Below the pieces are notes generated by a model that was not told the origin of the DNA, did not search any database, and saw nothing but the letters and a program-made list of their open reading frames with translations. 64,000 nt of DNA from an uncultured Eubacteriales bacterium (lineage in GTDB: Bacteria; Bacillota; Clostridia; Christensenellales; UBA1242), in NCBI GenBank assembly GCA_949878485.1, contig CATLAM010000006.1, positions 6,914-70,913 on the forward strand. The letters are read 5' to 3'. Shown here piece after piece: positions 4,144-19,451 of the stretch (position 1 is the first letter of the stretch; each line of letters starts with the position of its first letter). Both the position numbers and the translations under genes were made by a program.

Positions 4144-4153
4144 TCTTTCCTCC

Positions 4154-4693
4154 TTAAACTTCTTCAACAATAATGTTGTCGTTTGTGAAAACGCAGATTT
4201 CACTGGCAATTTTAAGTGATTTATAAGCAATTTCTTTTGCTGTGTAATTTGTGTTTTGAACCAATGCTCTTGCCGCTGCAAGTGCGTAATTTCCGCCAGA
4301 ACCGATTGCACAAATGTCGTCTTGTGGTTCAATGACATCACCAGAGCCGTCCAAAATTAAAAGTTGATTTTTGTCAGCCACAATCAAAAGTGCTTCAAGT
4401 TGGCGCATACCCTTGTCACTACGCCAAGTTTGAGCAAGTTCAACAGCACTTCGCATAAGATTTCCAGAAAACTTATTCAACATCGCTTCAAACTTTTCGC
4501 TTAATGTGAAAGCATCTGCAACAGAGCCAGCAAATCCAATGACAACAGTGTTGTTGTAAAGTCGTCTTACTTTTTTGGCATTGCTTTTAAAAATTATGCT
4601 GTTAGACATTGTTACTTGTCCATCTCCAGCAATGGCAATTTGTCCATCTTTTTTAACAGCACAAATGGTTGTTCCTCTAAACATATTTTCCAT
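4154..4693 (-). CDS. hslV: ATP-dependent protease subunit HslV
   Basis: 179 aa; N-terminal GTTICAV (Thr nucleophile context); [14 protein letters not shown]; directly upstream of hslU. Confidence 0.9.
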
Positions 4694-5951
4694 AAAATTT
4701 CTCCTTAAATTTATCCGTTTGAGTTTTAGATTTTTCCAAAAGATTTAAAACAAAGTTTTCATAAGTTTTGGATGCTAAACTATTCATAATAATTATATCA
4801 TATTTCAGATTGAATAACCTAAAATTTATAACACTTTTTTTAAACAAATTTTCGTATATTTTGCCGATGCAACAATTTTCTTTTAAATATTTTGTTCCGA
4901 TATAATGATCAAGTTGTTCAATAACGCTGTAAGCACATAAATTTGCCATTAAAAGGCTTTCGAAACTGCCATTTGTGCCAATAAGTCCCCCACAAACATA
5001 GATGTTTTCATGGTCGATGACTTGCAGGTTTTCATTTAAACAAGCAGGAGTAAGAAGATAAGTTTTTCTTCTTATAACACTTGGTTTTTCAATTTTGAAA
5101 CCCTTTAATGCTTCTATGCAAGACATGATTTCAAACTGTTCATCTGTGTCAAATGCTGTGAAAAAATCATTGACAATCAAAACATTTTCCGATTTATTAT
5201 ATGTCATTTTAAGACTGGCAAATATGTTTGTTTTTGAAGTGTTTGCGTCAAAGTGTGGTCTTAAAACAGAATTTCTAAGTCCGCCAAATCCCCTTTTTGC
5301 CATGCTTTCAATGGTGATTTGTTTTTCAAATGCAATCTCTTTTGGAAGTTCATATTCTCCATAGAATTTCAAAACTGTGTTGTAAAGTTTTTCATATTCT
5401 TCTTGCGTCAAATTGGCATAGCATTCTGTTTGGGAAACAAAATTCAATTTATTTAAATCTATATCCCCCGCATTTAAAATCAAATTTTCAGGATGAAAAT
5501 AACATACACGTTGTTGACCTATGAAATTTTCCAAATTTTTCAATAATTTTTTATCAGTGTTGTGACCTGTTGCAATGATGTTTGTTTCTGTTTCGTTGAG
5601 AGTATCTATTGTTCCACTAAACAATTTTACATTTGGTTTTTGAAGTAAAATACTTTTTGCTTTTTCCATATATTCTTCGTCATATACGAAACCAAACTTA
5701 TCAAAATTTTCGCGTTTAGCAAGTGAAAAAAGTGGACTGCCTAAACACTCCAATTCAAATTTCATATTTTCAGTTAAAAAAATTTCATAAGGATTATAAT
5801 AGTCAAATTTCTTATGTTTTGCACTGTCATCGCCATTGTCAAAAATATGGACAGTAAAACCATAGTTGGCAAGAATGAAAGCAACTTCCATTCCCGCCAA
5901 ACCACAGCCAATCACTTTTATAGGTTTATTTGACACAAAACGATTAATCAT
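4677..5951 (-). CDS. trmFO: divergent TrmFO/Gid-like FAD protein (folate-dependent tRNA U54 methyltransferase family)
   Basis: Sits in the topA-gid-hslVU slot. FAD motif [12 protein letters not shown] plus [30 protein letters not shown] blocks that recall TrmFO. Start could be 5951 or 5969. Confidence 0.55.
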
Positions 5952-8007: not shown

Positions 8008-8021
8008 AATTAATCTCCTTT

Positions 8022-9092
8022 TTAAATCAAGGCAAACATTTTGCCCGGCAACTTTCTTATTAAACCACGAATTTCCATTGTTGTCAAACAACTGTTCAAA
8101 ATATTAACAGGAATTTTGGAATTTTCATGCAAAAAGTCAAAATCTTGCTGTCCGTTTTCCAATAAATTTATTATTGTTTGTTCATCAAGACTGACAAATT
8201 GCACATTTTTCTCTTTGGAAATTTTGTTTAAACCATAAAATTCAATGATGTCATCAGAAGCCAAAACGCATTCTGCATGACCATATCTTATAAGTTGATT
8301 TGTCAGTTCACTTGTTTTGCTGTCTATATTCCCTGGAATTGCAAACACATCTTTGCCATAATCCAAAGCAAAATCTTTTGTGTAAACTGTTCCGCTTTTT
8401 AAACCTGCTTCTGGAATTAAAATCCCGTTACAAAGCCCTGCAACAATTCTGTTTCTTCTTGGAAAAGTGTAAGGCTTAGCCTTGAATGATGGTGGATATT
8501 CTGACAAAATCAAACCATTTTTTGCAATTTCATCTGCAAGATTGGTGTTTGTTGCAGGATAGATATTGTTGAAACCACTTGCAATAACAGCAATAGTTTT
8601 TCCGCCAACATCCAGTGTTGCTTTGTGTGCAATTGCATCAATTCCATAACAAAGTCCGCTGACGATGACCAGACCACTTTGTGCAAGGTTCTTGGCAAAT
8701 CTTTCTGTGATTATTCTGCCATAATTGGATGGCACACGAGTTCCTACAACACCAAAACATTTTTCTGTGCAAAGTGACATGTCACCTTTTGCATACAAAA
8801 TTAAAGGTCTGTCGTCAAGGTCAATAAGACTTTTTGGATATTTATCAGAAAAGATTGTCACAATTTCAATGCCACTGTTTTCCATGTTTGTAAGCATGGA
8901 TTCAAAGTTTTGTTTTCCATAATTTTTTACAACTTTTTGATATTCTTCAGTGGACAAATTTTCCAAAATAATATTGCTGTTTAATGCTTGGTCTACACTT
9001 AATTCGCCAAGTTGTTCAATGATTATTTCTTGTTTTTTATTGGCTATTTCACATATGGAAAACAGCACTAAAAGTTTTTCAATTTCTTTCAT
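8022..9092 (-). CDS. dprA: DNA processing protein DprA (Smf)
   Basis: 356 aa; VVGTRVPSNYG and SGLCYGIDAIAHKA Rossmann-like core; conserved position upstream of topA. Confidence 0.85.
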   Translation of the reverse strand: MKEIEKLLVLFSICEIANKKQEIIIEQLGELSVDQALNSNIILENLSTEEYQKVVKNYGKQNFESMLTNMENSGIEIVTIFSDKYPKSLIDLDDRPLILYAKGDMSLCTEKCFGVVGTRVPSNYGRIITERFAKNLAQSGLVIVSGLCYGIDAIAHKATLDVGGKTIAVIASGFNNIYPATNTNLADEIAKNGLILSEYPPSFKAKPYTFPRRNRIVAGLCNGILIPEAGLKSGTVYTKDFALDYGKDVFAIPGNIDSKTSELTNQLIRYGHAECVLASDDIIEFYGLNKISKEKNVQFVSLDEQTIINLLENGQQDFDFLHENSKIPVNILNSCLTTMEIRGLIRKLPGKMFALI

Positions 9093-9103
9093 CTAATTTT
9101 CCC

Positions 9104-10636
9104 TTAATCCCAATATTTTCTGTCAAGCCCACGATAAGAAATGGCTTCAAAAATGTGTCTTGGCAAAATTTCAATTTCGCCTTCCAAATCAGCAATAGTG
9201 CGAGCCACTCTTAAAATTCGATCATGTGCCCTTGCACTTAATTTCAATTTGGAAAAAGCCTGTTCCATAAGTTCTTGACATTCTTTGGAAAGTTTGCAAA
9301 ATTTCTTCATTTGTGGAACAGACATCTTGGCATTCGAAAAAGTTTTGGTGTTTTTAAATCGTTTTAACTGAATGTCTCTTGCCTTATCAACTCTTGCTTT
9401 AATGCTTTCGCTGTTTTCTTCTTTTGTTTCGTTGTTAAGGTCTTGATAGGAAATGTTGTCCACTTCCACATGAATGTCTATTCTGTCCATAATTGGTCCA
9501 GAAATCTTGGAAAGATATTTATGAATTTGTGCTGGCGTGCAACGACATTCGCGATCCTTTGCTCCATAATTTCCGCAAGGACATGGATTCATGCTGGCAA
9601 TAAGTGTGAAACTTGAAGGATATGTCACTGTTTGGTTTGCCCTTGCCACAGTTATTGTGCCGTCTTCTAAAGGTTGACGTAATGTTTCAATTAAATTTCT
9701 GGTATACTCAGGAAATTCATCCAAAAATAAAACGCCATTATGAGCCAAACTTATTTCCCCTGGTTTGCTGTGATTTCCGCCACCCGTCATGCTGACAACA
9801 GTTGCCGTTGTGTGTGGAGTTCTAAAAGGTCTTTCAGTTATGATGCCTTTTTTTAAATCAAGTTCACCTGCAATGGAATGAATTTTAGTAACCTGCAACG
9901 CTTCTTCAAAAGTTAAGTCTGGCAAAATTCCAGAAAAACATTTTGCAAGCATGCTTTTACCACTTCCTGGTGGGCCAATCATAAGCACATTATGTCCGCC
10001 TGCTGCGGCAATCTCCAATGCACGCTTAGCCATGGCTTGCCCTTTAACATTTTCAAAATCCAATTTGTTTGTGTCTTGTCTGGAAACTTCTTCAAAACTT
10101 TTTGTTTCAAGTTTGTTTAAAACTATTTCGTCATTCAAAAACATGACAACTTGTCGCAAATTGGAAACCGCATAGATTTCCATTCCGTCAATAAATTTTG
10201 CTTCTTCGCAATTGTCACTTGGAATAATCACTTTTTTAAAACCAGCACTTCTGGCTGAAATAAGAATTGGAAGAACGCCTTTGACCTTTTTAATAGTTCC
10301 GTCCAAAGAAAGTTCGCCAATGAAAATGAAATCTTTATATTTCTTATTTAAAATTTGTTCTGATGCAGACAGAATGCCAACGGCCATGCTAAGTTCGTAA
10401 TGTGGACCTTCTTTTTTTGTGTCTGCTGGTGCAAGGTTAATTGTAAAGTGTTTGATTGGAAACTGAAAGCCAGAATTTCTTATGGCAGATTTAACTCTGT
10501 CTTTGCTTTCTTTAACTGCAGTGTCACCAAGGCCGACCATGTCGATGTGTGGAATACCGCCCACCATATCTGTTTCAATAGTGACCAAAAATCCTTCAAT
10601 TCCACAAAGCCCATAACTTAAAACTTTTGATAACAT
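9104..10636 (-). CDS. comM: Mg-chelatase-like AAA+ protein ComM/YifB
   Basis: Lon-like N-terminal domain; Walker A GPPGSGKSMLAK; LFLDEFPE; C-terminal helix-bundle domain. Start MLSKVL at 10636 with GAGG upstream. Confidence 0.85.
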   Translation of the reverse strand: MLSKVLSYGLCGIEGFLVTIETDMVGGIPHIDMVGLGDTAVKESKDRVKSAIRNSGFQFPIKHFTINLAPADTKKEGPHYELSMAVGILSASEQILNKKYKDFIFIGELSLDGTIKKVKGVLPILISARSAGFKKVIIPSDNCEEAKFIDGMEIYAVSNLRQVVMFLNDEIVLNKLETKSFEEVSRQDTNKLDFENVKGQAMAKRALEIAAAGGHNVLMIGPPGSGKSMLAKCFSGILPDLTFEEALQVTKIHSIAGELDLKKGIITERPFRTPHTTATVVSMTGGGNHSKPGEISLAHNGVLFLDEFPEYTRNLIETLRQPLEDGTITVARANQTVTYPSSFTLIASMNPCPCGNYGAKDRECRCTPAQIHKYLSKISGPIMDRIDIHVEVDNISYQDLNNETKEENSESIKARVDKARDIQLKRFKNTKTFSNAKMSVPQMKKFCKLSKECQELMEQAFSKLKLSARAHDRILRVARTIADLEGEIEILPRHIFEAISYRGLDRKYWD

Positions 10637-10737
10637 ATAACCTCGCTTAACCATTCCATTATAACAAAAAATGCAATATAATCAAAATAAAATTGAAGTA
10701 ATACGACAAATTTATTACAAATTCACAAAATGGAATA

Positions 10738-10764
10738 AGAAAAAACAAACCCTAAGGTCTGTTT
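10738..10764 (-). terminator. rho-independent terminator with no gene directly upstream on its strand (orphaned by the island?)
   Basis: Minus strand reads AAACAGACC-TTAG-GGTTTGTTT then TTTTTCTTATT. The 9-bp stem has one G-U pair only in the minus orientation. Confidence 0.5.
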
Positions 10765-10847
10765 TTAATAATAAAATACTCTGGTGATGTAAATTGCCTT
10801 ATTTTCCTAGGTTTTACGGCATTTTAAACGAGTTAAAATTTAAATTT

Positions 10848-10878
10848 ATAAAACTTTTATAAAAAACTTTATAAAAAT
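10848..10878. repeat. about 2.7 tandem copies of a 12-bp AT-rich unit (ATAAAA(A)ACTTT)
   Basis: ATAAAACTTTT / ATAAAAAACTTT / ATAAAAATG read directly, just outside the proposed left island end. Confidence 0.4.
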
Positions 10879-10941
10879 GCTACAAAAATTATTAATTAAG
10901 ATACAAGTTATCTTTCTGGTTGGTTTATTTTTAGATAGAAT

Positions 10942-10974
10942 AAGTGGACAAAGTTGCAAAATCTTTGCCCACTT
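10942..10974. terminator. hairpin just past the int stop codon
   Basis: AAGTGGACAAAG / CTTTGCCCACTT arms (1 mismatch) with a 9-nt loop. The T-run is stronger on the plus side, so it may also block read-in from the flank. Confidence 0.4.
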
Positions 10975-10996
10975 ATATTTTTTATTTTTTACTTTA

Positions 10997-12430
10997 TTAG
11001 CAATATAATAGTTGATTTATTAAATTGCTTGCATTTTTATCGGCTTCTTTTGTGTAGTGTGTGTAAATATTTAATGTTGTATTTGTATCACTATGTCCAG
11101 CTCTTGCTGATACTGTTTTTATATCCATACCACGAGTAAGTTGCATGGTAATATTTGTGTGCCTTAGCCCATGCGGAGTAATTTCTTTCAGTCCATTTTT
11201 TTGTTCAAACTGTTTTAACCATCTAAAAGTTGTTGCTCCTGCCATATTTGAGCCATCCCATCTTACAAATAGTCTATCGGTATTTGCCCATAAGTTGGCA
11301 TATTTTATTTTTTCACTATCCCAAAATTTTTTGTAATCTTTTAATAATGTTACAACTCCACTTGGAATGCTAATTGTTCTGTTAGAATTTTTTGTTTTTG
11401 TATTTTTAGTTACAACCCCTATGCCACAAGCATATATACTATTTCTTGAAATTGTTACTAGTTCTCTTTCAAAATCAAAGTCTTTCCATTCTAAACCTAC
11501 CAACTCTGCGTTGCGAACACCCAAAGCAATCATTAAAGTAAATGCAACTTTTTTTCTAATATCTGTTTCATTGTTTATGCAATCTACAAAATGTTTTATA
11601 GTTTCCGTGTCATCTAATATTTCTTTTTTACCAGAAGAACCTTTTTTAATAGGACGAATAAAATCACTAGAAGCATAATTGACACTAATTATACCTTGCC
11701 TTACTGCATCTCTAAGTATCGTATGTAGCATTATTTTAATTGCATTATTTGAGCCTCTTGAATATGGAACTTGCTCACTTTCGGCTTTAAAATAATCTTC
11801 AAAATTTATTTTTAAACCTCTACATATTTTTTTAGCCGTTTCCCTTTTTAATTTATTACCAACTTTATAAGCAACCTCTATGGTAGTATCAGCCAATTCA
11901 CATAATTTTGCACAAGATTGAGTAGTTAGGTTTTTTGCAGTAACCAAATCTCTTATGCTTTGCTTCACGGTTATAGTTTCTTTTTTATGAGTTCGTTCGC
12001 ATAGCCAATTGCAAAAGTCTTGTATTATAATTTGATTTAAACCCCTTAAAGTGTATTTGCCTAATTTATCTTTAAAAATTTTTAAATAGCCTTTGCAACT
12101 ATTATAATAAGAATAGCCTTGTTCGTGGTATATTAAAATATCTTCTACCCACTTTTCAGCAAATTCATAAAATCCTATGTCTTCCATAGGCTTGTTTAAA
12201 ATTCCATTTGAAAGCCTTTCAGTTTGTTCTTTTAAGTCTAATTGACATTTTAGTTTATACGATTCAATTTCTTTTTTGCCCTTTAAGTGATTAGGTACTT
12301 TATATGTTTTAACTTTTTGTTTAAATTTTTTTGTTAAAGGGTCTTTATAGTTGCACCAAAATACAAATGAAAGTTCGCCTTTTTGATTATATCGTTCTTC
12401 TGTGTGCATTAAATCATTTTTATTCTTCAT
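10997..12430 (-). CDS. int: tyrosine site-specific integrase, Tn916-Int-like architecture
   Basis: Catalytic R (LGVRNAEL), HGLRHT, and GHSDTNTTLNIYTHY (Tyr nucleophile). Start MKNKNDL at ATG 12430 with GAGG 7 nt upstream, overlapping the xis stop. 8 Trp codons, all TGG. Confidence 0.9.
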   Translation of the reverse strand: MKNKNDLMHTEERYNQKGELSFVFWCNYKDPLTKKFKQKVKTYKVPNHLKGKKEIESYKLKCQLDLKEQTERLSNGILNKPMEDIGFYEFAEKWVEDILIYHEQGYSYYNSCKGYLKIFKDKLGKYTLRGLNQIIIQDFCNWLCERTHKKETITVKQSIRDLVTAKNLTTQSCAKLCELADTTIEVAYKVGNKLKRETAKKICRGLKINFEDYFKAESEQVPYSRGSNNAIKIMLHTILRDAVRQGIISVNYASSDFIRPIKKGSSGKKEILDDTETIKHFVDCINNETDIRKKVAFTLMIALGVRNAELVGLEWKDFDFERELVTISRNSIYACGIGVVTKNTKTKNSNRTISIPSGVVTLLKDYKKFWDSEKIKYANLWANTDRLFVRWDGSNMAGATTFRWLKQFEQKNGLKEITPHGLRHTNITMQLTRGMDIKTVSARAGHSDTNTTLNIYTHYTKEADKNASNLINQLLYC

Positions 12431-12641
12431 CTGGTACCTCAATAATTTTTCCACCTAAAAATATTATAAGTGAATTGACATCAACTAAAATTTTGCTTGA
12501 ATTAATTATGCAATCTATTTTTCCACTTTTGCATAATTGTCTAATAAATCACTCGCTTACTGCGGTATTTTTGTCAAGCGACCTTAATTCATCCATACAA
12601 CCTTTTATGGTTTTTAATTCTGGCATAATTTTTTTAAACAT
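12420..12641 (-). CDS. xis: excisionase-like HTH protein; needs sense decoding of one in-frame TGA (codon 31)
   Basis: Not in the track. AAGGAG + ATG 12641. 73 codons if TGA (12549-12551) is read as Trp: ...DKNTAVSE(W)FIRQLCKSGKIDCIINSSKILVDVNSLIIFL... The TAA stop overlaps the int ATG (ATGAAGAATAA). Confidence 0.7.
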
Positions 12642-12662
12642 ATTTTTTGCTCCTTTTTTTTT

Positions 12663-12691
12663 ATATTAATTTCATTTTTTAAAAAGTTCAA
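12663..12691 (-). promoter_or_regulatory. putative xis-int promoter
   Basis: Minus strand TTGAAC-N17-TAATAT, about 20 nt upstream of the xis SD. Confidence 0.4.
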
Positions 12692-12799
12692 GGGTTTTGA
12701 AAGGTGTTTTTCAAGTTGTTTTAAGTTTGCCAAGTTTTTTTAGTAAAAGTATTATAAATGCCTTGCTTTAAGCTTGATTTTTGTTTATAATATTTTATA

Positions 12800-12819
12800 A
12801 ATCATATTTAAATATGATT
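12800..12819. promoter_or_regulatory. perfect 20-bp palindrome, probable operator
   Basis: AATCATATTTAAATATGATT. It overlaps a TTGCTA-N17-TATATA promoter-like element (12818-12846) upstream of the 12883 HTH gene, in the divergent xis/regulator intergenic region. Confidence 0.5.
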
Positions 12820-12882
12820 GCTAATTATATTTTTGATTACTATATATATAATCATTCTAGACTTTTTTGCGGGAGGTAAACC

Positions 12883-13863
12883 ATGGATAATTTATCTAAT
12901 ACTTTTAAAACTAATTTGCAAAAACTTTTGGCTGATAATAAGATATACATTAACAAGAAAAACCTTTCTTCTTCTATCGGCTATAAAACTGCAAACTCTA
13001 TAACAAAAGACTTAAATGGAAGCAAAGAGCCTTTTTGGCAAAAGGCTTGTAAGTGCATTGAATACCTTTATTCTAATGTTCCTTGCTTTACTTTAAACAA
13101 CCTTATTCCAACCATGGAAGAAAAGCAAGAAGATAAAAAAAGTTTTGCAGAACTTGAAAAGGACTACAAAACCTTAAAATCTAATTATGAGCAACTTGAA
13201 AAGAAATATAATAATCTTTACCAGTTTGCCAACTTTATTAACATAATTAAAAACCTTTCAAACGAAAGGCAGGATACTTTATTTAATTTAATGTCAGCCG
13301 AATGCTTTGCTGACTTTTTAACCAAACTAAGAGATTATTCACATAGAGCATTAATATTTGATAAGAATAATAAAAAATCTCATTATTCAAACACTTTTAT
13401 ATTTAAACCTTACAACTATAATACTTTTGCTTATGCTGATGCTTTATGCCAGCAAACAATACTTGCTTTAAGGCTTAAATATAGATTAAAAAACCAAGAC
13501 GAATATGATAGAACAGAAGAAGAAAAAAAACAAAAACGTATTGAAGAAAAGATAAACGAAATTAAAATTACAGGGAAAAGAAGAACTGTTAAAATGCGAA
13601 TTAAAAATTTACTTGAAGAAACTAGTAATGCTGACAATAAAAAGGAATTTAGAAAAGATAGATTTAATGACCTAACTCGTTGGAAATTTAACCCTTTGGA
13701 CTTTAAAGATAATACTCTTTGGAACTATGATTTTATCGATTATAAAACCCTTTATAAAAAACAATTAGCAGAATTTATCGAAGAAGAATTTGGTAAAGAG
13801 TACTCACAAAAATATTTAAAAAAATCGATGAAAGATGAAAACGACGATATATTTAAAACTTAA
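12883..13863 (+). CDS. island regulator candidate: N-terminal Xre-like HTH plus long charged/coiled-coil C-terminal region
   Basis: GGGAGG SD + ATG. The first ~60 aa resemble an HTH_3 pattern (LQKLLADNKI..NKKNLSSSIGYKTANSITKDLNG). Divergent from xis-int. 3 Trp codons, all TGG. Confidence 0.5.
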   Translation: MDNLSNTFKTNLQKLLADNKIYINKKNLSSSIGYKTANSITKDLNGSKEPFWQKACKCIEYLYSNVPCFTLNNLIPTMEEKQEDKKSFAELEKDYKTLKSNYEQLEKKYNNLYQFANFINIIKNLSNERQDTLFNLMSAECFADFLTKLRDYSHRALIFDKNNKKSHYSNTFIFKPYNYNTFAYADALCQQTILALRLKYRLKNQDEYDRTEEEKKQKRIEEKINEIKITGKRRTVKMRIKNLLEETSNADNKKEFRKDRFNDLTRWKFNPLDFKDNTLWNYDFIDYKTLYKKQLAEFIEEEFGKEYSQKYLKKSMKDENDDIFKT

Positions 13864-13868
13864 ATTAC

Positions 13869-13899
13869 AATGCGTCTATGAGCTTGTTAAATGCGTCTA
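13869..13899. repeat. two direct copies of AATGCGTCTA 21 bp apart (third copy at 15581-15589)
   Basis: Read directly; a relatively GC-rich motif in AT-rich intergenic DNA between convergent island genes. Confidence 0.5.
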
Positions 13900-13937
13900 C
13901 AATCAATCGCGACATTTAACTTAATAAAATATATTGC

Positions 13938-14108
13938 TTATTGCATTTCGTCCGTTAAACTTTCAGTTTTTATAATCTTTAAAATTTCTTTCAACCCTTT
14001 CAAATCAAATGTTTGAATTGAAATTTCTAAAAATGTTTTTAAATCTTTCTCTAAAAGGCTTAATAAAATCTCTATTAAGTCTTTTTCATATTCTTGTTCA
14101 ACTTTCAT
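13938..14108 (-). CDS. hypothetical small protein (56 aa), last gene of the island minus-strand operon
   Basis: Below the track cutoff. GGAG SD 7 nt before ATG 14108; MKVEQEYEKDLIEILLSLLEKDLKTF...; TAA stop. Confidence 0.45.
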   Translation of the reverse strand: MKVEQEYEKDLIEILLSLLEKDLKTFLEISIQTFDLKGLKEILKIIKTESLTDEMQ

Positions 14109-14131
14109 TTTGCTTACTCCTTTTAAATTAA

Positions 14132-14476
14132 TTAGTCGGCTATTAATTCAAAATATGGAAAGCCTTTTGTAAACTTTTCATTTGCTATTTGTAAATCTTT
14201 TTTCAACTTACATACTTTTAACCACTTGCAAGGCTCAATCAAATTTAGTTGTTTTAAAAATACAAAATCGTTATTGAGAGAAAGGTTAAAACTATTTTTA
14301 ATTTCTTTTGCAGTTTGTTCGGCATCATAATCACTCATACCAGCACGAATTACAATAAGGTTATTATCAAAATGACCTTCCGCAACTTTATAATTTTTTA
14401 TAATCTCGTCTATTTGTGTTTTTGTTAAAACACTCTTTTTTATTATTATGTCAATAAAGCCATAGCCAAAAACCAT
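14132..14476 (-). CDS. hypothetical protein (114 aa)
   Basis: Start set at MVFGYGF (ATG 14476, AAGGGGGG SD), 13 nt after the upstream stop. The longer track ORF overlaps the upstream gene. Confidence 0.55.
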   Translation of the reverse strand: MVFGYGFIDIIIKKSVLTKTQIDEIIKNYKVAEGHFDNNLIVIRAGMSDYDAEQTAKEIKNSFNLSLNNDFVFLKQLNLIEPCKWLKVCKLKKDLQIANEKFTKGFPYFELIAD

Positions 14477-14489
14477 TTTTTGCCCCCCT

Positions 14490-14975
14490 TTAAACAAATT
14501 CAACTTTCTCGCAAGATAAATTTGTAAGCCTAATTTTATTATCAATATCAAGTAGTTGCGTTTTAATGTTTTTGCAGTTAATTTTTTGTGTGTAAATTTC
14601 TTTACAATCAATAGAAGATAGGCAAGTAATTTGTTTGCACTTTAAAATATTTCCACTTATGTTTTTATGTATTAATATGCTTTCACAAACACACCAATCT
14701 TTTATAATTAAGTCGTCAGCAAATATTTTATTGCAAGTAAAAGAATAGTTAAAAGTAATTGTTTTTGCCTTTACATACACGCAACAATCATAGTCTTTTT
14801 TGCTTACTTTTTGGCATTCATAAACTAAGTCAACAGCACAATTAAATAAAACATCAACTTTCTCGCCATTTTCTATAAACTCAAATATAATTTGTTTATG
14901 CTTTCCGTCGTGCTTATCTGCTGGCACTATTTTAACATATCTTTCTAATTCTTCTAGTTTATTTATCGTTATCAT
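14490..14975 (-). CDS. hypothetical Cys-rich protein (161 aa)
   Basis: AAGGAG SD; about 14 Cys spread through a beta-rich-looking sequence; no family recognised. Confidence 0.55.
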   Translation of the reverse strand: MITINKLEELERYVKIVPADKHDGKHKQIIFEFIENGEKVDVLFNCAVDLVYECQKVSKKDYDCCVYVKAKTITFNYSFTCNKIFADDLIIKDWCVCESILIHKNISGNILKCKQITCLSSIDCKEIYTQKINCKNIKTQLLDIDNKIRLTNLSCEKVEFV

Positions 14976-15037
14976 TTTAACTCCTTATTTAAAGCGGATT
15001 TATTATTTTTAAGGGGAAGTTTATGTTATTATTAATA

Positions 15038-15544
15038 TCAAGTAGGGCAGTTCTTATCAAGCCAATCAAACCAATATTTATCTAAAATATGTGGTGCAAA
15101 ATCAACATACAATTTGCTTAAAAATTTAATAGCCAACTTTTCAATTATAAATTTTCTTGCAGTGTTTGAAAGAAATAAATTAATATTTTCTTGTCTTTGC
15201 TTTTTTGAAATGTTTTCTATATCTAAATTTAGTTTAAAAGTATCGTTGACTATTTTCATAAATCTATCGTCTTCAACCAGTTCTTCAAAAATCATATTTG
15301 AAAGTGATTTTGATATATTCTCATACTTGCTATATAAAAATATCTGCAACCCATATTTTTTAAACTTTTCAGCTGAAATAACCTTATAGACATTTCCCAA
15401 CTTTTCAACTGCACCATATTTTATTAAATCTTCCAAGGTAGATTTAGCCTTTGGAAAACTCCACTTAAAAAACCTTTGCAATGTTGCAATGCCAAAATTA
15501 TCTAAATTTATTAAGTCATTAAACTTCTCAATATTGCTTTTCAT
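15038..15544 (-). CDS. hypothetical protein with N-terminal FtsK-gamma-like winged helix
   Basis: GIATLQRFFKWSFPKAKSTLEDLIKYGAVEK resembles the FtsK gamma pattern (LQRxxxxGYxRAxxxxDxLExxGxV). Ends TGA-TAT-TAA. Confidence 0.45.
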   Translation of the reverse strand: MKSNIEKFNDLINLDNFGIATLQRFFKWSFPKAKSTLEDLIKYGAVEKLGNVYKVISAEKFKKYGLQIFLYSKYENISKSLSNMIFEELVEDDRFMKIVNDTFKLNLDIENISKKQRQENINLFLSNTARKFIIEKLAIKFLSKLYVDFAPHILDKYWFDWLDKNCPT

Positions 15545-15680
15545 ATAAACTCCTTTGTATCGGTTAGTACAAGCCGTTTAAATGCGTCTTACACCGTTCT
15601 TAATATTGTGTTTATATATTTTATTGCTTTTACATTTTGTGCTTTTAAACGCTAAGTTTTAATATCTAGTATTTTGTTTT

Positions 15681-15715
15681 TTTAAAGTAAAAGACAGCAA
15701 AAATACATTGCTGTC
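15681..15715 (-). terminator. rho-independent terminator after the 325-aa membrane protein gene
   Basis: GACAGCAA / TTGCTGTC 8-bp stem, 7-nt loop, TTTT tract on the minus strand; overlaps the stop codon. Confidence 0.5.
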
Positions 15716-16692
15716 TATTTATAGCCTAGGCTTTTTCTACACTTCTTAAAACCCTCAGTTTTACAAGCCCCATAGTGTGGACATTGAATACAACCAGCAG
15801 GACCAAAATCATTTCTTCTTGCGTTTCTTTCTGCCTCTCTATTTGCTCGTTTTTGTTCATCTAATTGTTTTTGCATAATTTCAGTTTGCTTTCTTGCTTC
15901 TCGTTGTAAATTTTGTTGATGTTCTTGTGCCTCTTGTTGCAATCTATAATTTGTTTCTTCATCTTTTATTGCTCTCTGTCTAATTTCATATTCCAGCATT
16001 TTTCTTTGCCTTTGCTGTTCTTTCAATATCTTCTTTTCTCTTTCGTCTTTAATAAATATTTCTATAGCCTCTTTTATATTGTCGGCTCGACCCATCTCAA
16101 AAATATTTATAAACTCTCTTGCGTTTTCTAGAACAACATCAGGATAATGAGAAAACTTTTTGCTGTTTTCTTTTAATAATAATACCTTTTTATCAATATT
16201 TTCTCTGTTTTTTTGTTTTATTTCATTTACTTTTTTCTTATATAATTCTTCTAAGCGTTCATACTTTTCTTGGTATCTCTCGTCATACTCTGATTTCCAT
16301 TGCCTATATTTTTTGTTGCTTATTTTTTCTATAATTATTTGTATAAGATTATAAATATCTATTACTAAACAAACTACAACCACAATTATAGCGGCTCCAA
16401 GGATTATTTGACCAACCAACTTACTCAAATAATCATTTGTATTAGTCATAATTAAATAAAAGAAAATTCCAACGATTATACTTATTGGCAAAACTATTGC
16501 ATTTGCTATGAAAGCATCAACTGTTTTGCCTCCTCTTGACTTCGGAGCATCCTTATAGCTTACTTTTAGCCGTTTTTCAAACCACTCTTCCTCATCTGGT
16601 AAATCTAGATATTCATACTTAGCTTGAATTGAATTATAAGTATCATTATATTCATTTAATTCTTTTAGTATTGTCTGTACAGAATTATCCAT
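15715..16692 (-). CDS. hypothetical membrane protein: 2 TM helices, long Q/E/R/K coiled coil, C-terminal Cys cluster
   Basis: Hydrophobic spans IANAIVLPISIIVGIFFYLI and ILGAAIIVVVVCLVIDIY; coiled coil about aa 130-290; C-terminus GCIQCPHYGACKTEGFKKC. Confidence 0.55.
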   Translation of the reverse strand: MDNSVQTILKELNEYNDTYNSIQAKYEYLDLPDEEEWFEKRLKVSYKDAPKSRGGKTVDAFIANAIVLPISIIVGIFFYLIMTNTNDYLSKLVGQIILGAAIIVVVVCLVIDIYNLIQIIIEKISNKKYRQWKSEYDERYQEKYERLEELYKKKVNEIKQKNRENIDKKVLLLKENSKKFSHYPDVVLENAREFINIFEMGRADNIKEAIEIFIKDEREKKILKEQQRQRKMLEYEIRQRAIKDEETNYRLQQEAQEHQQNLQREARKQTEIMQKQLDEQKRANREAERNARRNDFGPAGCIQCPHYGACKTEGFKKCRKSLGYK

Positions 16693-16716
16693 TACAACTC
16701 CTTATGATACAACCTT

Positions 16717-16745
16717 ATTATATATATTTCTCAATAAAAAGTCAA
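16717..16745 (-). promoter_or_regulatory. promoter of the 15715-16692 gene
   Basis: Minus strand TTGACT-N17-TATAAT, consensus-like. Confidence 0.55.
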
Positions 16746-16790
16746 ATATATTTACTACAAGTCAATAAAATATTTAATTTAAAGTCAATT
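16739..16790. promoter_or_regulatory. three AAGTCAA (TTGACTT) boxes at 20- and 23-bp spacing, putative operator array
   Basis: GTCAA at 16741, 16761 and 16784 in the divergent region between the membrane-protein gene and xre. The first box doubles as the -35. Confidence 0.4.
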
Positions 16791-16807
16791 TGGAACTATC
16801 TTCTAAA

Positions 16808-16835
16808 TTAGCACGACCTCAATATCATTTATAAT
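16808..16835 (+). promoter_or_regulatory. putative xre promoter
   Basis: TTAGCA-N16-TATAAT followed by AAAGGAGG SD. Confidence 0.4.
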
Positions 16836-16860
16836 TAATTGTAATAAAGGAGGTTAGGCT

Positions 16861-17169
16861 ATGGACAATAATGAACTTATAAACCGAATAGGCTTTATTA
16901 GAAATCGTGCAAATTTGTCGGCAAGAAAACTATCAATGGAAATAGGCAAAAATGAGTGCTATATTCATAGACTTGAAACAAGCAAAACATTTGCTCCAAC
17001 CTTTGAAACTTTAATGGATATTTTAGAGGCTTGTAATACTACCACCGAAGAATTTTTTTATTATAATATTTCAGCTTATAAACAAGATGAGGAAATATTA
17101 CAACTTTTAGAAACTGCCAGCCCAGAAAAGAAAACTGCAATCATTTCATTATTAAAATTAAAACAATAA
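16861..17169 (+). CDS. Xre-family HTH transcriptional regulator
   Basis: 102 aa; IGFIRNRANLSARKLSMEIGKNECYIHRLETSK is a typical HTH_3 pattern; strong SD. Confidence 0.75.
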   Translation: MDNNELINRIGFIRNRANLSARKLSMEIGKNECYIHRLETSKTFAPTFETLMDILEACNTTTEEFFYYNISAYKQDEEILQLLETASPEKKTAIISLLKLKQ

Positions 17170-17172
17170 AAA

Positions 17173-17199
17173 AGAAGGCTTGATACTTTTCAGCCCTCT
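17173..17199. terminator. hairpin between convergent genes; contains CTTGATAC (pC194/pUB110-type nick-site sequence)
   Basis: AGAAGGC / GCCCTCT arms (1 mismatch), 13-nt loop TTGATACTTTTCA, T-rich tail. CTTGATA at 17179-17185 spans the stem-loop junction. Confidence 0.45.
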
Positions 17200-17206
17200 T
17201 TTATTT

Positions 17207-17782
17207 TTAATATTTCTTTGTGAAATAATCTTTACCTGCTTGCCATAAATAAATATCTAGTTGTCTTAAAGTAAAGTCGTTTAACTTATAAAATTCTCTA
17301 AATGCGTTTAAAATAGAATAGAACTTTTTGTAATCTCTACAATCTTCATAAGAGAATTTGAAAAACTTATCTTGCTTATTTAAGTGCATTAGCATTTTTG
17401 CCACATAACTATCAAATATAGGAAATTCATTGCCAAGATGATGAACACAATATTTGGTTGCAAAAGAGTATATATTCCTGTTTATGCCGTTTTTTGTTTT
17501 GTCAGCAATATCATTTACAACAGACAAATCTTTTGCTTTTAATTTTTTATCTATGTTTAGCGAAACAATATACTCGGCTACCTTATATGTATTAAATATA
17601 TTTGTGCTATAAAAGTCATTGAGTATATTAACCTTTAATAAAACTTCGCTAATATCATTATTGTTAGGGTAAAGGGCAAACAACTTTTTTAATGCCTTTT
17701 CTTGTTCTACATAGTTTGATTGCGTATCGCAAAGCATTAAATACTTTTCAACTTCTGCTTTGCATGGCTTTTTTATCTCCAT
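17207..17782 (-). CDS. hypothetical protein (191 aa)
   Basis: Own TTGACA promoter and AAGGAG SD; helical-looking; no family recognised. Confidence 0.55.
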   Translation of the reverse strand: MEIKKPCKAEVEKYLMLCDTQSNYVEQEKALKKLFALYPNNNDISEVLLKVNILNDFYSTNIFNTYKVAEYIVSLNIDKKLKAKDLSVVNDIADKTKNGINRNIYSFATKYCVHHLGNEFPIFDSYVAKMLMHLNKQDKFFKFSYEDCRDYKKFYSILNAFREFYKLNDFTLRQLDIYLWQAGKDYFTKKY

Positions 17783-17804
17783 ATATACTCCTTTTATCTA
17801 TTCA

Positions 17805-17834
17805 ATCATAACATACAACTACATATTTTGTCAA
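17805..17834 (-). promoter_or_regulatory. promoter of the 191-aa gene
   Basis: Minus strand TTGACA-N18-TATGAT with TG two bases upstream of the -10. Confidence 0.5.
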
Positions 17835-17868
17835 ACAAAACGAATAAGTGTTTACTATAAATAGATAA

Positions 17869-17904
17869 AAAATAAAAGTAAGTTGTTATACCTACTTTTA
17901 TTTT
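17869..17904 (-). terminator. terminator after rep (12-bp perfect stem)
   Basis: AAAATAAAAGTA / TACTTTTATTTT with a 12-nt loop and a T-tract on the minus strand, 69 nt after the rep TAA. Confidence 0.55.
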
Positions 17905-17972
17905 GAGTTATTTTATGGCTAACTACATTAATTTTAGCCAAGATTATTTGTGTTTTAACAATATAATCATAT

Positions 17973-18800
17973 TTAAGTATTATTTTGTTTATTATCTACC
18001 ATTGCTATATTAGATGTTTTAAGCCTTTCAACTAGCCTTTGCATAAAATCTTTTTCACTAGGTAAATATATTTTATCCAAATAATATGTTAATTTATTAT
18101 CATTATTTAAAAAGTAATGCCCATTTTCAAAAGTATTGTAGTCAAGTACACCAATATATTCTTTGTATTGCTCTTCTAAAATACTATATAATAAGTTTTC
18201 GTCAATCTCAAATGCTGGTACATCAATATTTTTAATTCCTTGACTTCAAGTTATTATTCTTGCACCTATGGGAAAATAGGTATAAAAGCGATTGCCTTGT
18301 TGGATTGTATCATCTTTATATTTGGTAATATATTTTATTAAGCCTTGTATATTATAGGCATTTTTAATATTGACGAATCCATAACCTCAAAACTTTTTAA
18401 TATCATGATAACCTATTTTTAATTTTTCTTCATTCAATAATATTATATGTATGTGGAAAAAGTGGCTTGTGCCTTGCACTTCAATAGCCCTTATATATTT
18501 AATATTGTCGCCATAATTCCGCCTTATGCTTTTTATAAATTGTTTAAAGGCATTTAGGACTCTGTCAAACTCTATATAATGTTCAAAGGTAAGCGTAATT
18601 CATTTAGCAAAATAATTTGTCAAGTCCAGTTTATATAGTTCATATCTTTTGCGATTGATTGTTCTATTATAATCTTTTCTATCCATATTTAGTTTAGGCT
18701 TATCGCTACGCCTTAACCCATTTCACTTTTTATCTGCCTTTTCAGTATTAAATTTTTTTGAAACAATAATCATTCCGTTTGCAAATTCAATTTTGTACAT
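17973..18800 (-). CDS. rep: HUH rolling-circle replication initiator / relaxase-like Rep; needs sense decoding of four in-frame TGA codons
   Basis: Not in the track. GGAGG (18809-18813) + ATG 18800. 275 codons to TAA if TGA at codons 26, 67, 138 and 185 are read as Trp. Motifs WITLTF, HFFHIHIIL (HUH), GLIKYITKY. No TGG, no TAA/TAG, no frameshift. Confidence 0.75.
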
Positions 18801-18993
18801 TTTATATTCCTCCGTTTTGTTGAGCAATGCTCGTATATAGTTTAGCCTCGCAAGAACATTATTTAAAACTACTTTATATTAATAAAGATTTTAGGTGCTT
18901 GTTCTAAAAAATATATAATAATTTTTATAAAAATATTTTACTGAAATTTAGAAAATTTAAATTAAACTACAAATTTTAGAAATTTTATATAAT

Positions 18994-19034
18994 TTACACA
19001 AGTTGCAACTCAAATTAGGAAAGTTACACAAGTT
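18994..19034. repeat. two direct copies of TTACACAAGTT 30 bp apart, upstream of rep near the right island end
   Basis: 18994-19004 and 19024-19034, with a 10-bp palindrome AGTTGCAACT between them. AAATTT(T)AGAAA(A)TTT is also duplicated at about 18945 and 18971. Confidence 0.5.
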
Positions 19035-19073
19035 ATTTTAAAAAACAAAAGTTAAAATTTCTAGATTAATTAA

Positions 19074-19451
19074 TTAATAAATAAACATAGAAGCGATAAA
19101 TGCCCCAGCAATGGAAAAACACAAAAGAATTTTCAACCAATGCAGAATTTTGTATTTTTTCATTTTCTTGTTGTAATCTTTCTTGAAAGCAGTTTCGTTT
19201 TCATTGAAATAATCAGAAGTAATTTGTTTTTTATTTATAGTTTCCGCTTTGTAAAATTTAAAATTTTCTTCTAATTCTGTTTTGAAATCGGTGAAATATT
19301 TGTAAATAAGCCAACCACCCCAAAAGAAACTTAGAAGCATTGCAAATGCCATGGCAAAATATACAAAACCTGTCCATGTTTGAACAAGAATTGCACTTAT
19401 GCCAGCAAGCAAAACCAAAATAATTGTGACAATGTAAGGTATTTTAGACAT
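19074..19451 (-). CDS. hypothetical small membrane protein
   Basis: 125 aa, 3 predicted TM spans. Confidence 0.55.
   Translation of the reverse strand: MSKIPYIVTIILVLLAGISAILVQTWTGFVYFAMAFAMLLSFFWGGWLIYKYFTDFKTELEENFKFYKAETINKKQITSDYFNENETAFKKDYNKKMKKYKILHWLKILLCFSIAGAFIASMFIY

What the first reader, a model, noticed from the sequence alone, without database searches (positions are those of the whole stretch)
13938..16692. Unknown-function cargo genes under Xre-type control (membrane/coiled-coil/Cys-cluster protein plus four small proteins)
Five consecutive minus-strand genes with good SD sites have no family I can name.
- A 325-aa protein with 2 TM helices, a coiled coil of about 160 aa rich in Q/E/R/K, and a terminal CxxCxxxxxCx7C cluster. 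It has its own consensus promoter and terminator.
- A 168-aa protein whose N-terminus resembles the FtsK-gamma DNA-binding winged helix.
- A 161-aa Cys-rich protein.
- A 114-aa protein.
- A 56-aa protein.

Cargo like this on satellites and IMEs is often anti-phage, exclusion or helper-interference machinery. That is only a contextual guess.
Basis: inference. Interest (0 to 1): 0.6.

Follow-up and report, generated by a model that had tools for sequence, protein, structure and literature searches.

The report
Swappable membrane gene plus conserved operon
The five unnamed genes are two things: one swappable membrane-protein gene in a fixed expression slot, and four conserved backbone genes of unknown function, in a small mobile element of gut Clostridia.

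Summary
All five minus-strand genes, their ribosome-binding sites and the listed features are real. They are not one block of cargo.

**The element.** It spans about 10762-19084 (8.3 kb). It carries an integrase, an excisionase, a rolling-circle Rep and two regulators. Copies more than 99% identical sit at other chromosomal sites in other assemblies.

**The 325-aa gene.**
- It fills a slot whose promoter, Shine-Dalgarno region and terminator are backbone.
- Backbones 97-98% identical carry unrelated inserts there: a 61-aa plus 293-aa four-TM pair, or a 250-aa lipoprotein. A more diverged backbone carries a roughly 460-aa three-TM protein.
- This gene is true cargo. I infer an envelope-level exclusion or anti-phage role; that is not shown.

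**The four small genes (168, 161, 114, 56 aa).**
- They occur in every sibling element, in the same order.
- They are under purifying selection (dN/dS 0.09-0.36).
- They are bracketed by a conserved AGACGCATT motif, so they are backbone.
- The 168-aa protein models as a winged-helix DNA binder.
- The 161-aa protein models with high confidence as a beta-solenoid, with no Pfam match and no significant structural match.

No defence, phage or plasmid family matches any of the five. Function remains inferred.

The parts
10762..19084 (.). Whole integrative element, about 8.3 kb. Gene order in window orientation: int, xis, p326, p56, p114, p161, p168, slot gene, xre, p191, rep.
   Evidence: blastn homology to sibling copies in other chromosomal contexts ends at 10753-10762 and 19081-19087. 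L014 is 99.9% identical over 8322 bp but lies next to aspS/asnS and spoIVA. GC is 25-28% against 31-38% in the flanks.
15715..16692 (-). p325, the slot cassette. A 2-TM hairpin membrane protein, probably N-in/C-in, with a charged helical region and a C-terminal CxxCx5Cx7C cluster.
   Evidence: Only near-identical copies exist, plus one homologue at 29% identity (P0002, 482 aa) lying just downstream of a TrbL-like conjugation gene, with a UvrD helicase, an integrase fragment and a restriction-modification pair further along the same contig. Absent from all sibling elements that carry other cassettes.
16717..16745 (-). Slot promoter TTGACT-17-TATAAT, part of the backbone.
   Evidence: It lies in a 43-nt stretch invariant in six elements, including the sibling that is 76-84% identical. 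Homology with siblings runs up to 16693-16698, just before the ATG.
15692..15716 (-). Slot terminator hairpin AGACAGCAA...TTGCTGTCT followed by a T tract, part of the backbone.
   Evidence: The stem is conserved in all six siblings. Homology resumes at 15717-15722, at the stop codon of p325.
15038..15544 (-). p168: an N-terminal winged-helix DNA-binding domain plus an all-helical C-terminal domain. The stop is TGA, followed in frame by TAT TAA.
   Evidence: AlphaFold2 pLDDT 80. Foldseek finds only generic wHTH proteins, including FtsK gamma. 24 homologues at 56-92% identity. The C-terminal domain has a homologue next to a p161-like gene in a remote element (hhalign 86.7%, E 4e-6).
14490..14975 (-). 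p161: a small alpha/beta N-domain (1-75) plus a beta-solenoid (79-160) with stacked cysteines. A new family.
   Evidence: AlphaFold2 pLDDT 93.4, pTM 0.88. No Foldseek match at E<=0.001 in PDB or BFVD. 22 cluster representatives in 1.84 billion proteins. No Pfam hit in any of 26 family members.
14132..14476 (-). p114: a soluble protein with no detectable relatives outside the element family.
   Evidence: dN/dS 0.16-0.29. Carries a 1-nt deletion in the L004-L006 lineage.
13938..14108 (-). p56: a small acidic protein (pI 4.6).
   Evidence: 80-100% identical in siblings. dN/dS 0.10-0.21.
15581..15589 (-). AGACGCATT motif in the p168 leader.
   Evidence: Exact 9-mer, embedded in an invariant TAAGACGCATTTAA in all six siblings.
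13869..13898 (-). Two AGACGCATT motifs 21 bp apart, just after the p56 stop.
   Evidence: The surrounding GATTGATTGTAGACGCATT...AAGCTCAT(A/G)(G/A)ACGCATT is more conserved than the coding sequence across seven siblings.
16861..17169 (+). Xre-type HTH regulator, transcribed divergently from the slot promoter.
   Evidence: Pfam HTH_3, E 3.6e-5. 91-100% identical in siblings. dN/dS 0.03-0.12.
12883..13863 (+). p326, a backbone gene convergent with the operon and divergent from xis-int. Possibly a regulator; a DNA-binding domain is unconfirmed.
   Evidence: Present in all siblings at 53-99% identity. No family hit. An N-terminal HTH is my reading of the sequence only.

Best explanation
The region holds two functionally separate units of an 8.3-kb integrative, rolling-circle-Rep element. 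By gene content the element resembles an IME or an integrated plasmid, and it could be a satellite. The host is a gut Clostridia bacterium with a 1.1-Mb genome.

**Unit 1: the 325-aa gene (15715-16692).**
- It is the current occupant of a fixed expression slot.
- An invariant sigma-70 promoter and Shine-Dalgarno region upstream, and a conserved terminator downstream, belong to the backbone. Only the coding sequence between them is exchanged (shown).
- At least four unrelated inserts exist, and all are membrane or envelope proteins (shown).
- I infer that the slot carries an envelope-acting accessory function, at about 40%. The most likely roles are exclusion of incoming DNA (superinfection or entry exclusion) or another membrane-level anti-phage function.
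- p325 would act from the cytoplasmic face of the membrane through its charged helical arm and Cys4 knuckle.

**Unit 2: the 168-, 161-, 114- and 56-aa genes.**
- They form a backbone operon kept in every family member under purifying selection (shown).
- I infer that it serves the element's own life cycle, at about 45%. The 168-aa winged-helix protein would bind the co-oriented AGACGCATT sites that bracket the operon. It would work together with the 161-aa beta-solenoid protein.
- The process would be DNA processing, transfer or exploitation of a helper.
- The operon is probably reached by read-through of the slot terminator, or from an activator-dependent promoter, because no good -35/-10 pair precedes it.
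For: **Slot.**
- Homology to siblings that are 97-98% identical stops at 16693-16698 and resumes at 15717-15722, exactly the CDS limits of p325.
- The promoter block is invariant over 43 nt, and the terminator stem is conserved.
- Alternative inserts are a 61-aa plus 293-aa four-TM pair, a 250-aa lipoprotein and a roughly 460-aa three-TM protein. They are mutually unrelated by blastp.
- The 61+293 pair diverges in step with the backbone: 56-58% identity in the diverged sibling, where p168 is 64% identical. The 61-aa gene also occurs in a remote element, so this pair looks ancestral and the others look like replacements.

**Mobility.** Copies carrying p325 that are more than 99% identical sit next to aspS/spoIVA, priA or mscL in other assemblies.

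**Backbone operon.**
- The four genes are present in the same order in all 13 or more sibling loci. This holds whether the recombinase is a tyrosine or a serine type, and with or without p191.
- dN/dS is 0.09-0.36.
- In a remote element, a homologue of the p168 C-domain ends in an ATGA overlap with the start of a p161-like gene. That implies translational coupling.

**Structures.** p168 has a winged helix. p161 is a confident beta-solenoid.

**Motif.** Three exact AGACGCATT copies lie in the element against one in the other 56 kb of the window. All three are co-oriented with the operon and sit in highly conserved non-coding blocks.

**Promoter.** No promoter-like site of at least 9 of 12 matches lies between the terminator and p168.
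Against: - No function is demonstrated. No PADLOC, PHROG, Pfam or NCBIfam model matches any cassette or operon protein.
- p325 exposes only about 9 residues outside the membrane, so it cannot mask a surface receptor.
- All cassettes being membrane proteins could instead mean the slot product is needed for the element's own transfer, through non-orthologous replacement of one role.
- Binding of p168 to the AGACGCATT sites is conjecture. Xre, p326, Rep or the integrase could be the binder instead.
- p114 is frameshifted in one lineage, so it may be dispensable.
Confidence: 0.5

Rival explanations
1. All five genes, or the four small ones, form a new anti-phage defence or abortive-infection system carried as cargo.
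For: They lie on a mobile island with no assignable function. Remote p161-like genes sit beside a WYL-domain regulator and a weak PD-(D/E)XK hit. Another is in a prophage-like early region. p325 and its homologue P0002 both hit the membrane part of PADLOC LeoBC weakly, at E about 2e-3.
Against: The four small genes never vary in presence or order, whereas defence cargo on mobile elements typically varies. None has a nuclease, NADase, ATPase, protease or pore-like domain, and none has a TM segment. PADLOC finds nothing for them. The LeoBC hits cover TM and charged segments of biased composition, and no dynamin GTPase is present.
Confidence: 0.15
2. The slot proteins are essential transfer parts of the element, such as membrane docking or export factors matched to different helpers. 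On this reading p325 is not accessory cargo.
For: All four cassette types are membrane or envelope proteins. The slot is never empty in the loci seen. P0002, the only homologue of p325, lies directly after a TrbL/VirB6-like conjugation gene. One sibling sits 3 kb from a VirD4/TraG coupling-protein gene.
Against: The four cassette types share no detectable similarity and differ in topology: a lipoprotein, a 2-TM hairpin, and 3-TM and 4-TM proteins. That is hard to reconcile with one conserved mechanistic role. Backbones 97-98% identical carry different cassettes, the pattern of accessory hotspots.
Confidence: 0.2
3. The four small genes are helper-interference or packaging genes of a phage satellite. 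The satellite would be switched on when a TGA-recoding phage infects, with p168 acting as a small-terminase-like DNA recogniser of the AGACGCATT repeats.
For: Rep and xis need TGA read as Trp (and earlier notes e1-2840811 and e1-2840812). The operon uses only TGG for Trp. The host has no tRNA with a UCA anticodon. p168 pairs a wHTH with a helical domain, and the repeats are co-oriented and 21 bp apart.
Against: There is no capsid, terminase, portal or Ppi/Cpm-like hit. No relative was found in IMG/VR viral contigs. Foldseek gives no terminase match for p168. No helper is known.
Confidence: 0.15

Closest known systems
Anti-phage hotspots of P2-like phages and P4-like satellites (Rousset et al. 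2022, PMC9122126), and 'moron' cassettes of temperate phages
   Same: A fixed position between conserved backbone genes carries unrelated inserts in otherwise near-identical elements. The insert is flanked by its own promoter and terminator.
   Different: Here the promoter and terminator belong to the backbone, not to the insert. Every insert seen is a membrane or envelope protein. None matches a known defence family. The carrier is an 8.3-kb element with a rolling-circle Rep, not a phage or a P4-type satellite.
Superinfection- or entry-exclusion proteins of Gram-positive prophages and conjugative elements, for example lactococcal Sie2009, the Ltp lipoprotein of Streptococcus phage TP-J34 and ICEBs1 YddJ (named from my own knowledge)
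   Same: They are small membrane proteins or lipoproteins encoded next to the repressor or integrase module. They vary strongly between related elements.
   Different: There is no sequence or profile similarity, and no functional test. p325 has almost no extracellular part and carries a long cytoplasmic charged arm with a Cys4 cluster.
Integrative and mobilizable elements of Firmicutes that encode relaxases related to rolling-circle initiators (Guedon et al. 2017, PMC5704250)
   Same: A small integrated element with a tyrosine or serine recombinase, a Rep related to those of small Firmicute plasmids (24-35% identity), no mating-pore genes, and exchange of the recombination module between relatives.
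   Different: No coupling protein is present, and mobilisation is untested. Rep and xis contain in-frame TGA codons. The four-gene operon has no counterpart in described IMEs.
FtsK gamma domain and other winged-helix DNA binders (for p168)
   Same: The same three-helix plus beta-hairpin fold, and an ATLQR...KA...L..G.V sequence pattern (my own reading of the sequence).
   Different: The Pfam FtsK_gamma model does not match. There is no translocase motor. A helical C-domain of unknown fold is attached.
MinC and other triangular beta-helix proteins (for p161)
   Same: A two-domain layout: a small alpha/beta N-domain plus a C-terminal beta-solenoid.
   Different: The best Foldseek match (MinC) has E 0.24 and TM 0.34, which is not significant. 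I read a 16-residue hydrophobic periodicity and Cys ladders off the sequence. There are no Pfam bactofilin, hexapeptide or pentapeptide hits.

Membership tests
Accessory-gene hotspot or moron slot of a mobile element | Unrelated inserts at one position in otherwise near-identical backbones | tested here: met
   Three cassette types sit in backbones 97-98% identical. A fourth sits in a backbone 83-87% identical. Breakpoints fall at the CDS limits.
Accessory-gene hotspot or moron slot of a mobile element | Insert transcribed autonomously, flanked by a promoter and a terminator | tested here: met
   TTGACT-17-TATAAT and an intrinsic-terminator-like hairpin flank the CDS. Both are conserved in siblings. 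Transcription itself was not measured.
Known anti-phage defence systems (PADLOC-DB v2) | Significant match of at least one gene to a defence-system model | tested here: not met
   The four small proteins and the alternative cassettes have no hit. p325 and P0002 hit LeoBC only at E about 2e-3.
Eleos (LeoA/LeoBC dynamin-like defence) | Dynamin-like GTPase domain and a partner LeoA gene | tested here: not met
   No GTPase or P-loop family hits p325 or its neighbours. The weak match covers only the TM and charged part of the model.
FtsK_gamma (PF09397), for p168 | Match to the Pfam model | tested here: not met
   Not listed among Pfam hits even at E up to 1.
FtsK_gamma (PF09397), for p168 | Winged-helix fold superposable on FtsK gamma | tested here: inconclusive
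   Foldseek rank 16: 2j5p, TM 0.61 on the target, rmsd 2.7 A over 56 columns, E 0.15. Many other wHTH families score the same.
Integrative and mobilizable element (IME) | Own recombinase plus a relaxase or RCR-initiator-type protein, and no mating-pore genes | tested here: met
   Integrase PF00589 at 1.5e-24. Rep is related to small-plasmid Reps, and precomputed Pfam gives PF23343 on sibling Reps. No T4SS family appears among the element's genes.
Integrative and mobilizable element (IME) | Excision and mobilisation by a helper conjugative element | not testable with these tools
   Only indirect evidence: near-identical copies at different chromosomal sites.
Phage satellite (PICI, P4 or PLE type) | Genes that redirect helper packaging or capsid assembly (terS, ppi, cpm, sid, psu and the like) | tested here: not met
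   No PHROG hit of that kind. Absent from IMG/VR.
Pentapeptide-repeat, hexapeptide (LbH) or bactofilin beta-helix families, for p161 | Match to the Pfam repeat models | tested here: not met
   No Pfam hit in any of 26 family members. The 5-5-6 (16-residue) periodicity is my reading of the sequence.

The most novel reading that the evidence does not exclude
The four-gene operon would be a previously undescribed module by which a family of code-gated mobile elements exploits a helper. The element keeps rep and xis behind UGA codons. The operon would either mark the element's DNA for transfer or interfere with the helper. Its parts are a winged-helix DNA binder, a new beta-solenoid family, two small proteins and the AGACGCATT sites. 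The promoter-terminator slot beside it would be a dedicated exclusion hotspot that cycles unrelated membrane proteins.
Probability: 0.2. Interest if true: 0.7.

Novelty: new variant of a known kind. Interest (0 to 1): 0.45.

Why it matters
- **Separating cargo from backbone.** The analysis separates real cargo from backbone in a family of very small mobile elements found in gut Clostridia with reduced genomes. Mouse gut is documented for one sibling genome.
- **A slot to mine.** The element has a compact slot with a ready-made promoter and terminator that has captured at least four unrelated envelope proteins. This is a natural place to look for new exclusion or anti-phage membrane proteins.
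- **A new protein family.** The 161-aa protein defines a confidently folded beta-solenoid family with no Pfam model. It is confined to mobile-element contexts.
- **A link to the TGA lock.** Other findings on this island show that its excision and replication genes need UGA read as tryptophan. The four conserved genes are the obvious candidates for what the element does once it is switched on.

Tried and rejected
- **Profile searches.** Pfam, PHROGs, PADLOC and NCBIfam gave nothing above threshold for the five proteins, the neighbours and the alternative cassettes.
- **PDB sequence searches.** No hits for p168, p161, p114, p191, p326 or p325.
- **Foldseek.** p168 against PDB, and p161 against PDB and BFVD, gave no match at E<=0.001.
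- **tblastn of p325.** No match in the phage or plasmid collections.
- **Viral contig scans.** None found with the p168 family or a p161 subfamily. The full p161 alignment was too diverse to scan with.
- **Whole-genome search for the p161 family.** The family is rare in the 400 class-level and 400 phylum-level genomes searched. Besides the host itself, the class set gave one weak hit and the phylum set one weak hit.
- **Metagenome scan with the invariant promoter.** Only one extra contig was found.
- **Cysteine metal cluster in p161: rejected.** The cysteines are not conserved in remote family members. By my reading they recur every 16 residues, as stacked ladders in the solenoid.
- **Tiny virus with structural genes: rejected.** There is no capsid, coat or ATPase gene, and p56 has no TM segment.
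- **Homology between p325 and the 293-aa cassette: rejected.** BLASTP E 0.09, confined to TM segments.
Full report
**Observation**

- p325 at 15715-16692
- p168 at 15038-15544
- p161 at 14490-14975
- p114 at 14132-14476
- p56 at 13938-14108

Each is preceded by an AGGAG- or GGGGG-type ribosome-binding site (sequence).

The described features of p325 hold:
- Two hydrophobic segments lie at about 56-85 and 87-124. Both are flanked by K/R, which suggests an N-in/C-in hairpin with an outer loop of about 9 residues.
- A very charged region runs from about residue 125 to 295.
- The C-terminus carries C301-x2-C304-x5-C310-x7-C318.
- The promoter TTGACT-17-TATAAT lies at 16745-16717, and a terminator hairpin lies at 15716-15692.

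No coiled-coil predictor was run, so 'coiled coil' stays unverified.

**The island**

The genes sit in a low-GC stretch (25-28% against 31-38% in the flanks) between comM and rny.
- Homology to sibling copies defines an element of about 8.3 kb, from roughly 10762 to 19084.
- It encodes a tyrosine integrase, a small xis, a 326-aa backbone protein of unknown family, the five genes, an Xre regulator, a 191-aa protein and a rolling-circle Rep.
- Rep is interrupted by four in-frame TGA codons. That matter is treated by earlier notes e1-2840811 and e1-2840812.
- Read with TGA as Trp, the closest named relatives of Rep are Rep proteins of small Firmicute plasmids, at 24-35% identity.
- Copies more than 99% identical over the whole 8.3 kb lie in other chromosomal contexts in other assemblies, next to aspS/asnS and spoIVA (L014) or mscL (L016); L015 carries the p325-to-integrase part next to priA. 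The element is therefore recently mobile.
- Genomes holding sibling elements are uncultured Clostridia or Eubacteriales MAGs, one of them from the mouse gut catalogue.
- The window's own genome is 1.12 Mb and 96% complete. It uses TGA for about 15% of the stops of long ORFs. It has two tRNA-Trp(CCA) genes and no tRNA with a UCA anticodon.

**The five genes are not one unit**

A search of 5.8 billion proteins found only near-identical copies of p325 plus one homologue at 29% identity. It found 24 homologues of p168 at 56-92% identity. The contigs that encode these homologues show one conserved order: Rep, p191, Xre (opposite strand), a variable position, p168, p161, p114, p56, p326 (opposite strand), then a recombination module.

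The four small genes are present in that order in every sibling. This holds whether the recombinase is the 477-aa tyrosine type or a 586-aa serine type, and whether or not p191 is present.

Their dN/dS against siblings is:

| Gene | dN/dS |
|---|---|
| p168 | 0.21-0.36 |
| p161 | 0.09-0.30 |
| p114 | 0.16-0.29 |
| p56 | 0.10-0.21 |

One near-identical p168 pair has too few changes to judge. They are real, selected genes. For this element family they are backbone, not cargo.

**The slot**

p325 has no counterpart in most siblings.
- blastn against backbones 97-98% identical loses homology at 16693-16698, just upstream of the ATG at 16692.
- It regains homology at 15717-15722, at the stop codon.
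- The promoter lies in a 43-nt block that is invariant in six elements. These include L004, whose backbone is only 76-84% identical.
- The terminator stem is conserved in all six.
- The promoter, the Shine-Dalgarno region and the terminator therefore belong to the backbone, and only the coding sequence is exchanged.

Four occupants were found. By blastp they are unrelated to each other.

| Cassette | Content | Where seen |
|---|---|---|
| A | 61-69-aa beta-rich protein plus a 293-296-aa protein with four hydrophobic segments | L001/L013, L004-L006, L010, L011 |
| B | 250-aa protein with a signal peptide and a lipobox-like cysteine | L007-L009 |
| C | p325 | this window and 19 contigs |
| D | about 460-aa protein with three hydrophobic segments | L031 |

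Cassette A diverges in step with the backbone: 56-58% identity where p168 is 64% identical. Its 61-aa gene also appears in a remote element (L025). Cassette A therefore looks ancestral, and B, C and D look like replacements.

None of the cassettes hits a PADLOC, PHROG, Pfam or NCBIfam model above threshold.

The only homologue of p325 is P0002 (482 aa).
- It shares the TM hairpin, a GRADNIKEAI segment, the charged arm and a CxxCx5Cx9C end.
- It adds an N-terminal zinc ribbon and a BACON-like domain.
- It lies directly after a TrbL/VirB6-like conjugation gene. A UvrD helicase, an integrase fragment and a restriction-modification pair lie further along the same contig.

Both p325 and P0002 hit the membrane part of PADLOC LeoBC weakly, at E about 2e-3. 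No dynamin GTPase is present, and the matched segments are compositionally biased. I treat this as a lead only.

**The backbone operon**

p168:
- AlphaFold2 on 21 sequences gives pLDDT 80. The model has an N-terminal winged helix (helices 4-12, 19-26 and 30-42, hairpin 46-55) and an all-helical C-domain.
- Foldseek against PDB returns only generic winged-helix DNA binders: Sso10a, MarR, IclR, and FtsK gamma at rank 16. None reaches E<=0.001.
Pfam does not support family membership.

p161:
- An exhaustive HMMER search of 1.84 billion cluster representatives found 22 relatives.
- None of 26 family members has a Pfam match.
- With that alignment AlphaFold2 gives pLDDT 93.4 and pTM 0.88. The model has a small alpha/beta domain (1-75) followed by an uninterrupted beta-solenoid (79-160).
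- By my reading of the sequence, the hydrophobic positions recur in a 5-5-6 pattern of 16 residues. Several cysteines recur at that period (C81, C97, C113; C118, C134). The cysteines are not conserved in remote members. They look like stacked core ladders, not a metal site.
- Foldseek finds nothing significant in PDB (best is MinC, E 0.24) or in BFVD.

Contexts of remote p161-like genes are all those of mobile elements:
- One lies next to a p191-like gene (L021).
- One lies next to a WYL-domain regulator and a weak PD-(D/E)XK hit (L026).
- One lies in a prophage-like early region, after a cI/cro-like pair and an excisionase-like gene. There the solenoid is built of perfect AWNINA repeats (L024).
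- One lies in L025. There a 112-aa homologue of the p168 C-domain (hhalign 86.7%, E 4e-6) ends in an ATGA overlap with the p161-like start codon. This predicts that the p168 C-domain and p161 act together.

p114 and p56 have no detectable relatives outside the family (p114).
- p56 is acidic, with pI 4.6.
- p114 carries a 1-nt deletion in the L004-L006 lineage.

**Non-coding signals**

- The 9-mer AGACGCATT, read on the operon strand, occurs exactly three times in the element: at 15581-15589 in the p168 leader, and at 13890-13898 and 13869-13877, 21 bp apart, just after p56. It occurs once in the other 56 kb of the window.
- All three copies sit in blocks that are more conserved than the neighbouring coding sequence across six or seven siblings.
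- No promoter-like site of at least 9 of 12 matches lies between the slot terminator and p168.
- The conserved AAAATATATAA upstream has no conserved -35 partner, because L004 has deletions there.
- I infer that the operon is reached by terminator read-through or from an activator-dependent promoter.
- Control of the slot promoter by Xre is only positional. Of three TTGACTT repeats in the divergent region, only the one that forms the -35 is conserved in L004.

**Explanation**

Shown:
- the element family and its mobility;
- the slot with backbone expression signals and at least four unrelated envelope-protein inserts;
- the invariant, selected four-gene operon;
- the winged-helix and beta-solenoid models;
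- the conserved motif.

Inferred:
- The slot carries an envelope-level accessory function, most plausibly exclusion of incoming DNA or another membrane-level anti-phage role (about 40%).
- The operon serves the element's own life cycle, with p168 binding the AGACGCATT sites and working with p161 (about 45%).

Rivals:
- a new defence system made of the small genes (15%);
- slot proteins that are essential transfer parts matched to different helpers (20%);
- a satellite-type helper-interference or packaging module tied to the TGA lock on rep and xis (15%).

**Limits**

- Both structure-prediction jobs went to p168 and p161. p325, p114 and p56 were not modelled.
- No AlphaFold DB library was available for fold search.

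Noticed in passing
window 15032-15040: p168 is the only gene of the element I saw ending in TGA. The stop is followed in frame by TAT TAA. Gene calls made with code 4 therefore give 170-aa forms ending in WY or WF in many assemblies. This tandem stop is conserved in siblings. It would limit read-through if UGA were ever suppressed.
   Followed up: partly
window 17973-18878 (rep) and 12420-12641 (xis): Rep is one frame broken by four TGA codons at Trp-like positions. Xis has one in-frame TGA. All W codons in the four operon genes and in p191 are TGG. The host has no tRNA(UCA) and uses TGA as a stop. Earlier notes already cover this.
   Followed up: partly
G000 contig C1, about 3600-13300: The same 1.1-Mb genome holds other small elements. 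They carry related int (34% identity), xis (36%) and Xre (49-54%) genes, and a second Rep of the same class without TGA codons (290 aa, HIHAII motif). Beside them lie a Ser/Thr-kinase-like gene (383 aa) and TM/charged proteins. None has the four-gene operon.
   Followed up: partly
L004 5525-6232: A 235-aa HD-domain-like gene is inserted between p191 and xre in one sibling lineage only. This is a second variable site of the element.
   Followed up: no
L004 9067-9410 (also L005 and L006): p114 carries a 1-nt deletion (GGTCATTTT becomes GGCATTTT). It splits the gene into 39-aa and 68-aa ORFs in three independent assemblies.
   Followed up: yes
L024 1501-2629: A p161-family protein has a solenoid made of perfect AWNINA hexapeptide repeats. 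It is followed by a 175-aa protein with GNGVVCDSGRVCNN repeats that matches phage families of unknown function (phrog_7964, E 3e-47). Both lie just after a cI/cro-like pair.
   Followed up: no
L007 600-4692: In one sibling the element is preceded by a second, 348-aa integrase and a 146-aa membrane protein. A CD-NTase_C (CBASS-type) gene lies about 1.5 kb further upstream, beyond a seryl-tRNA synthetase gene.
   Followed up: no
L012 and L013 (contig CAOJSF010000003.1): One MAG contig of 127 kb carries two copies of the operon region about 40 kb apart. One has the tyrosine integrase and the other the serine recombinase.
   Followed up: no
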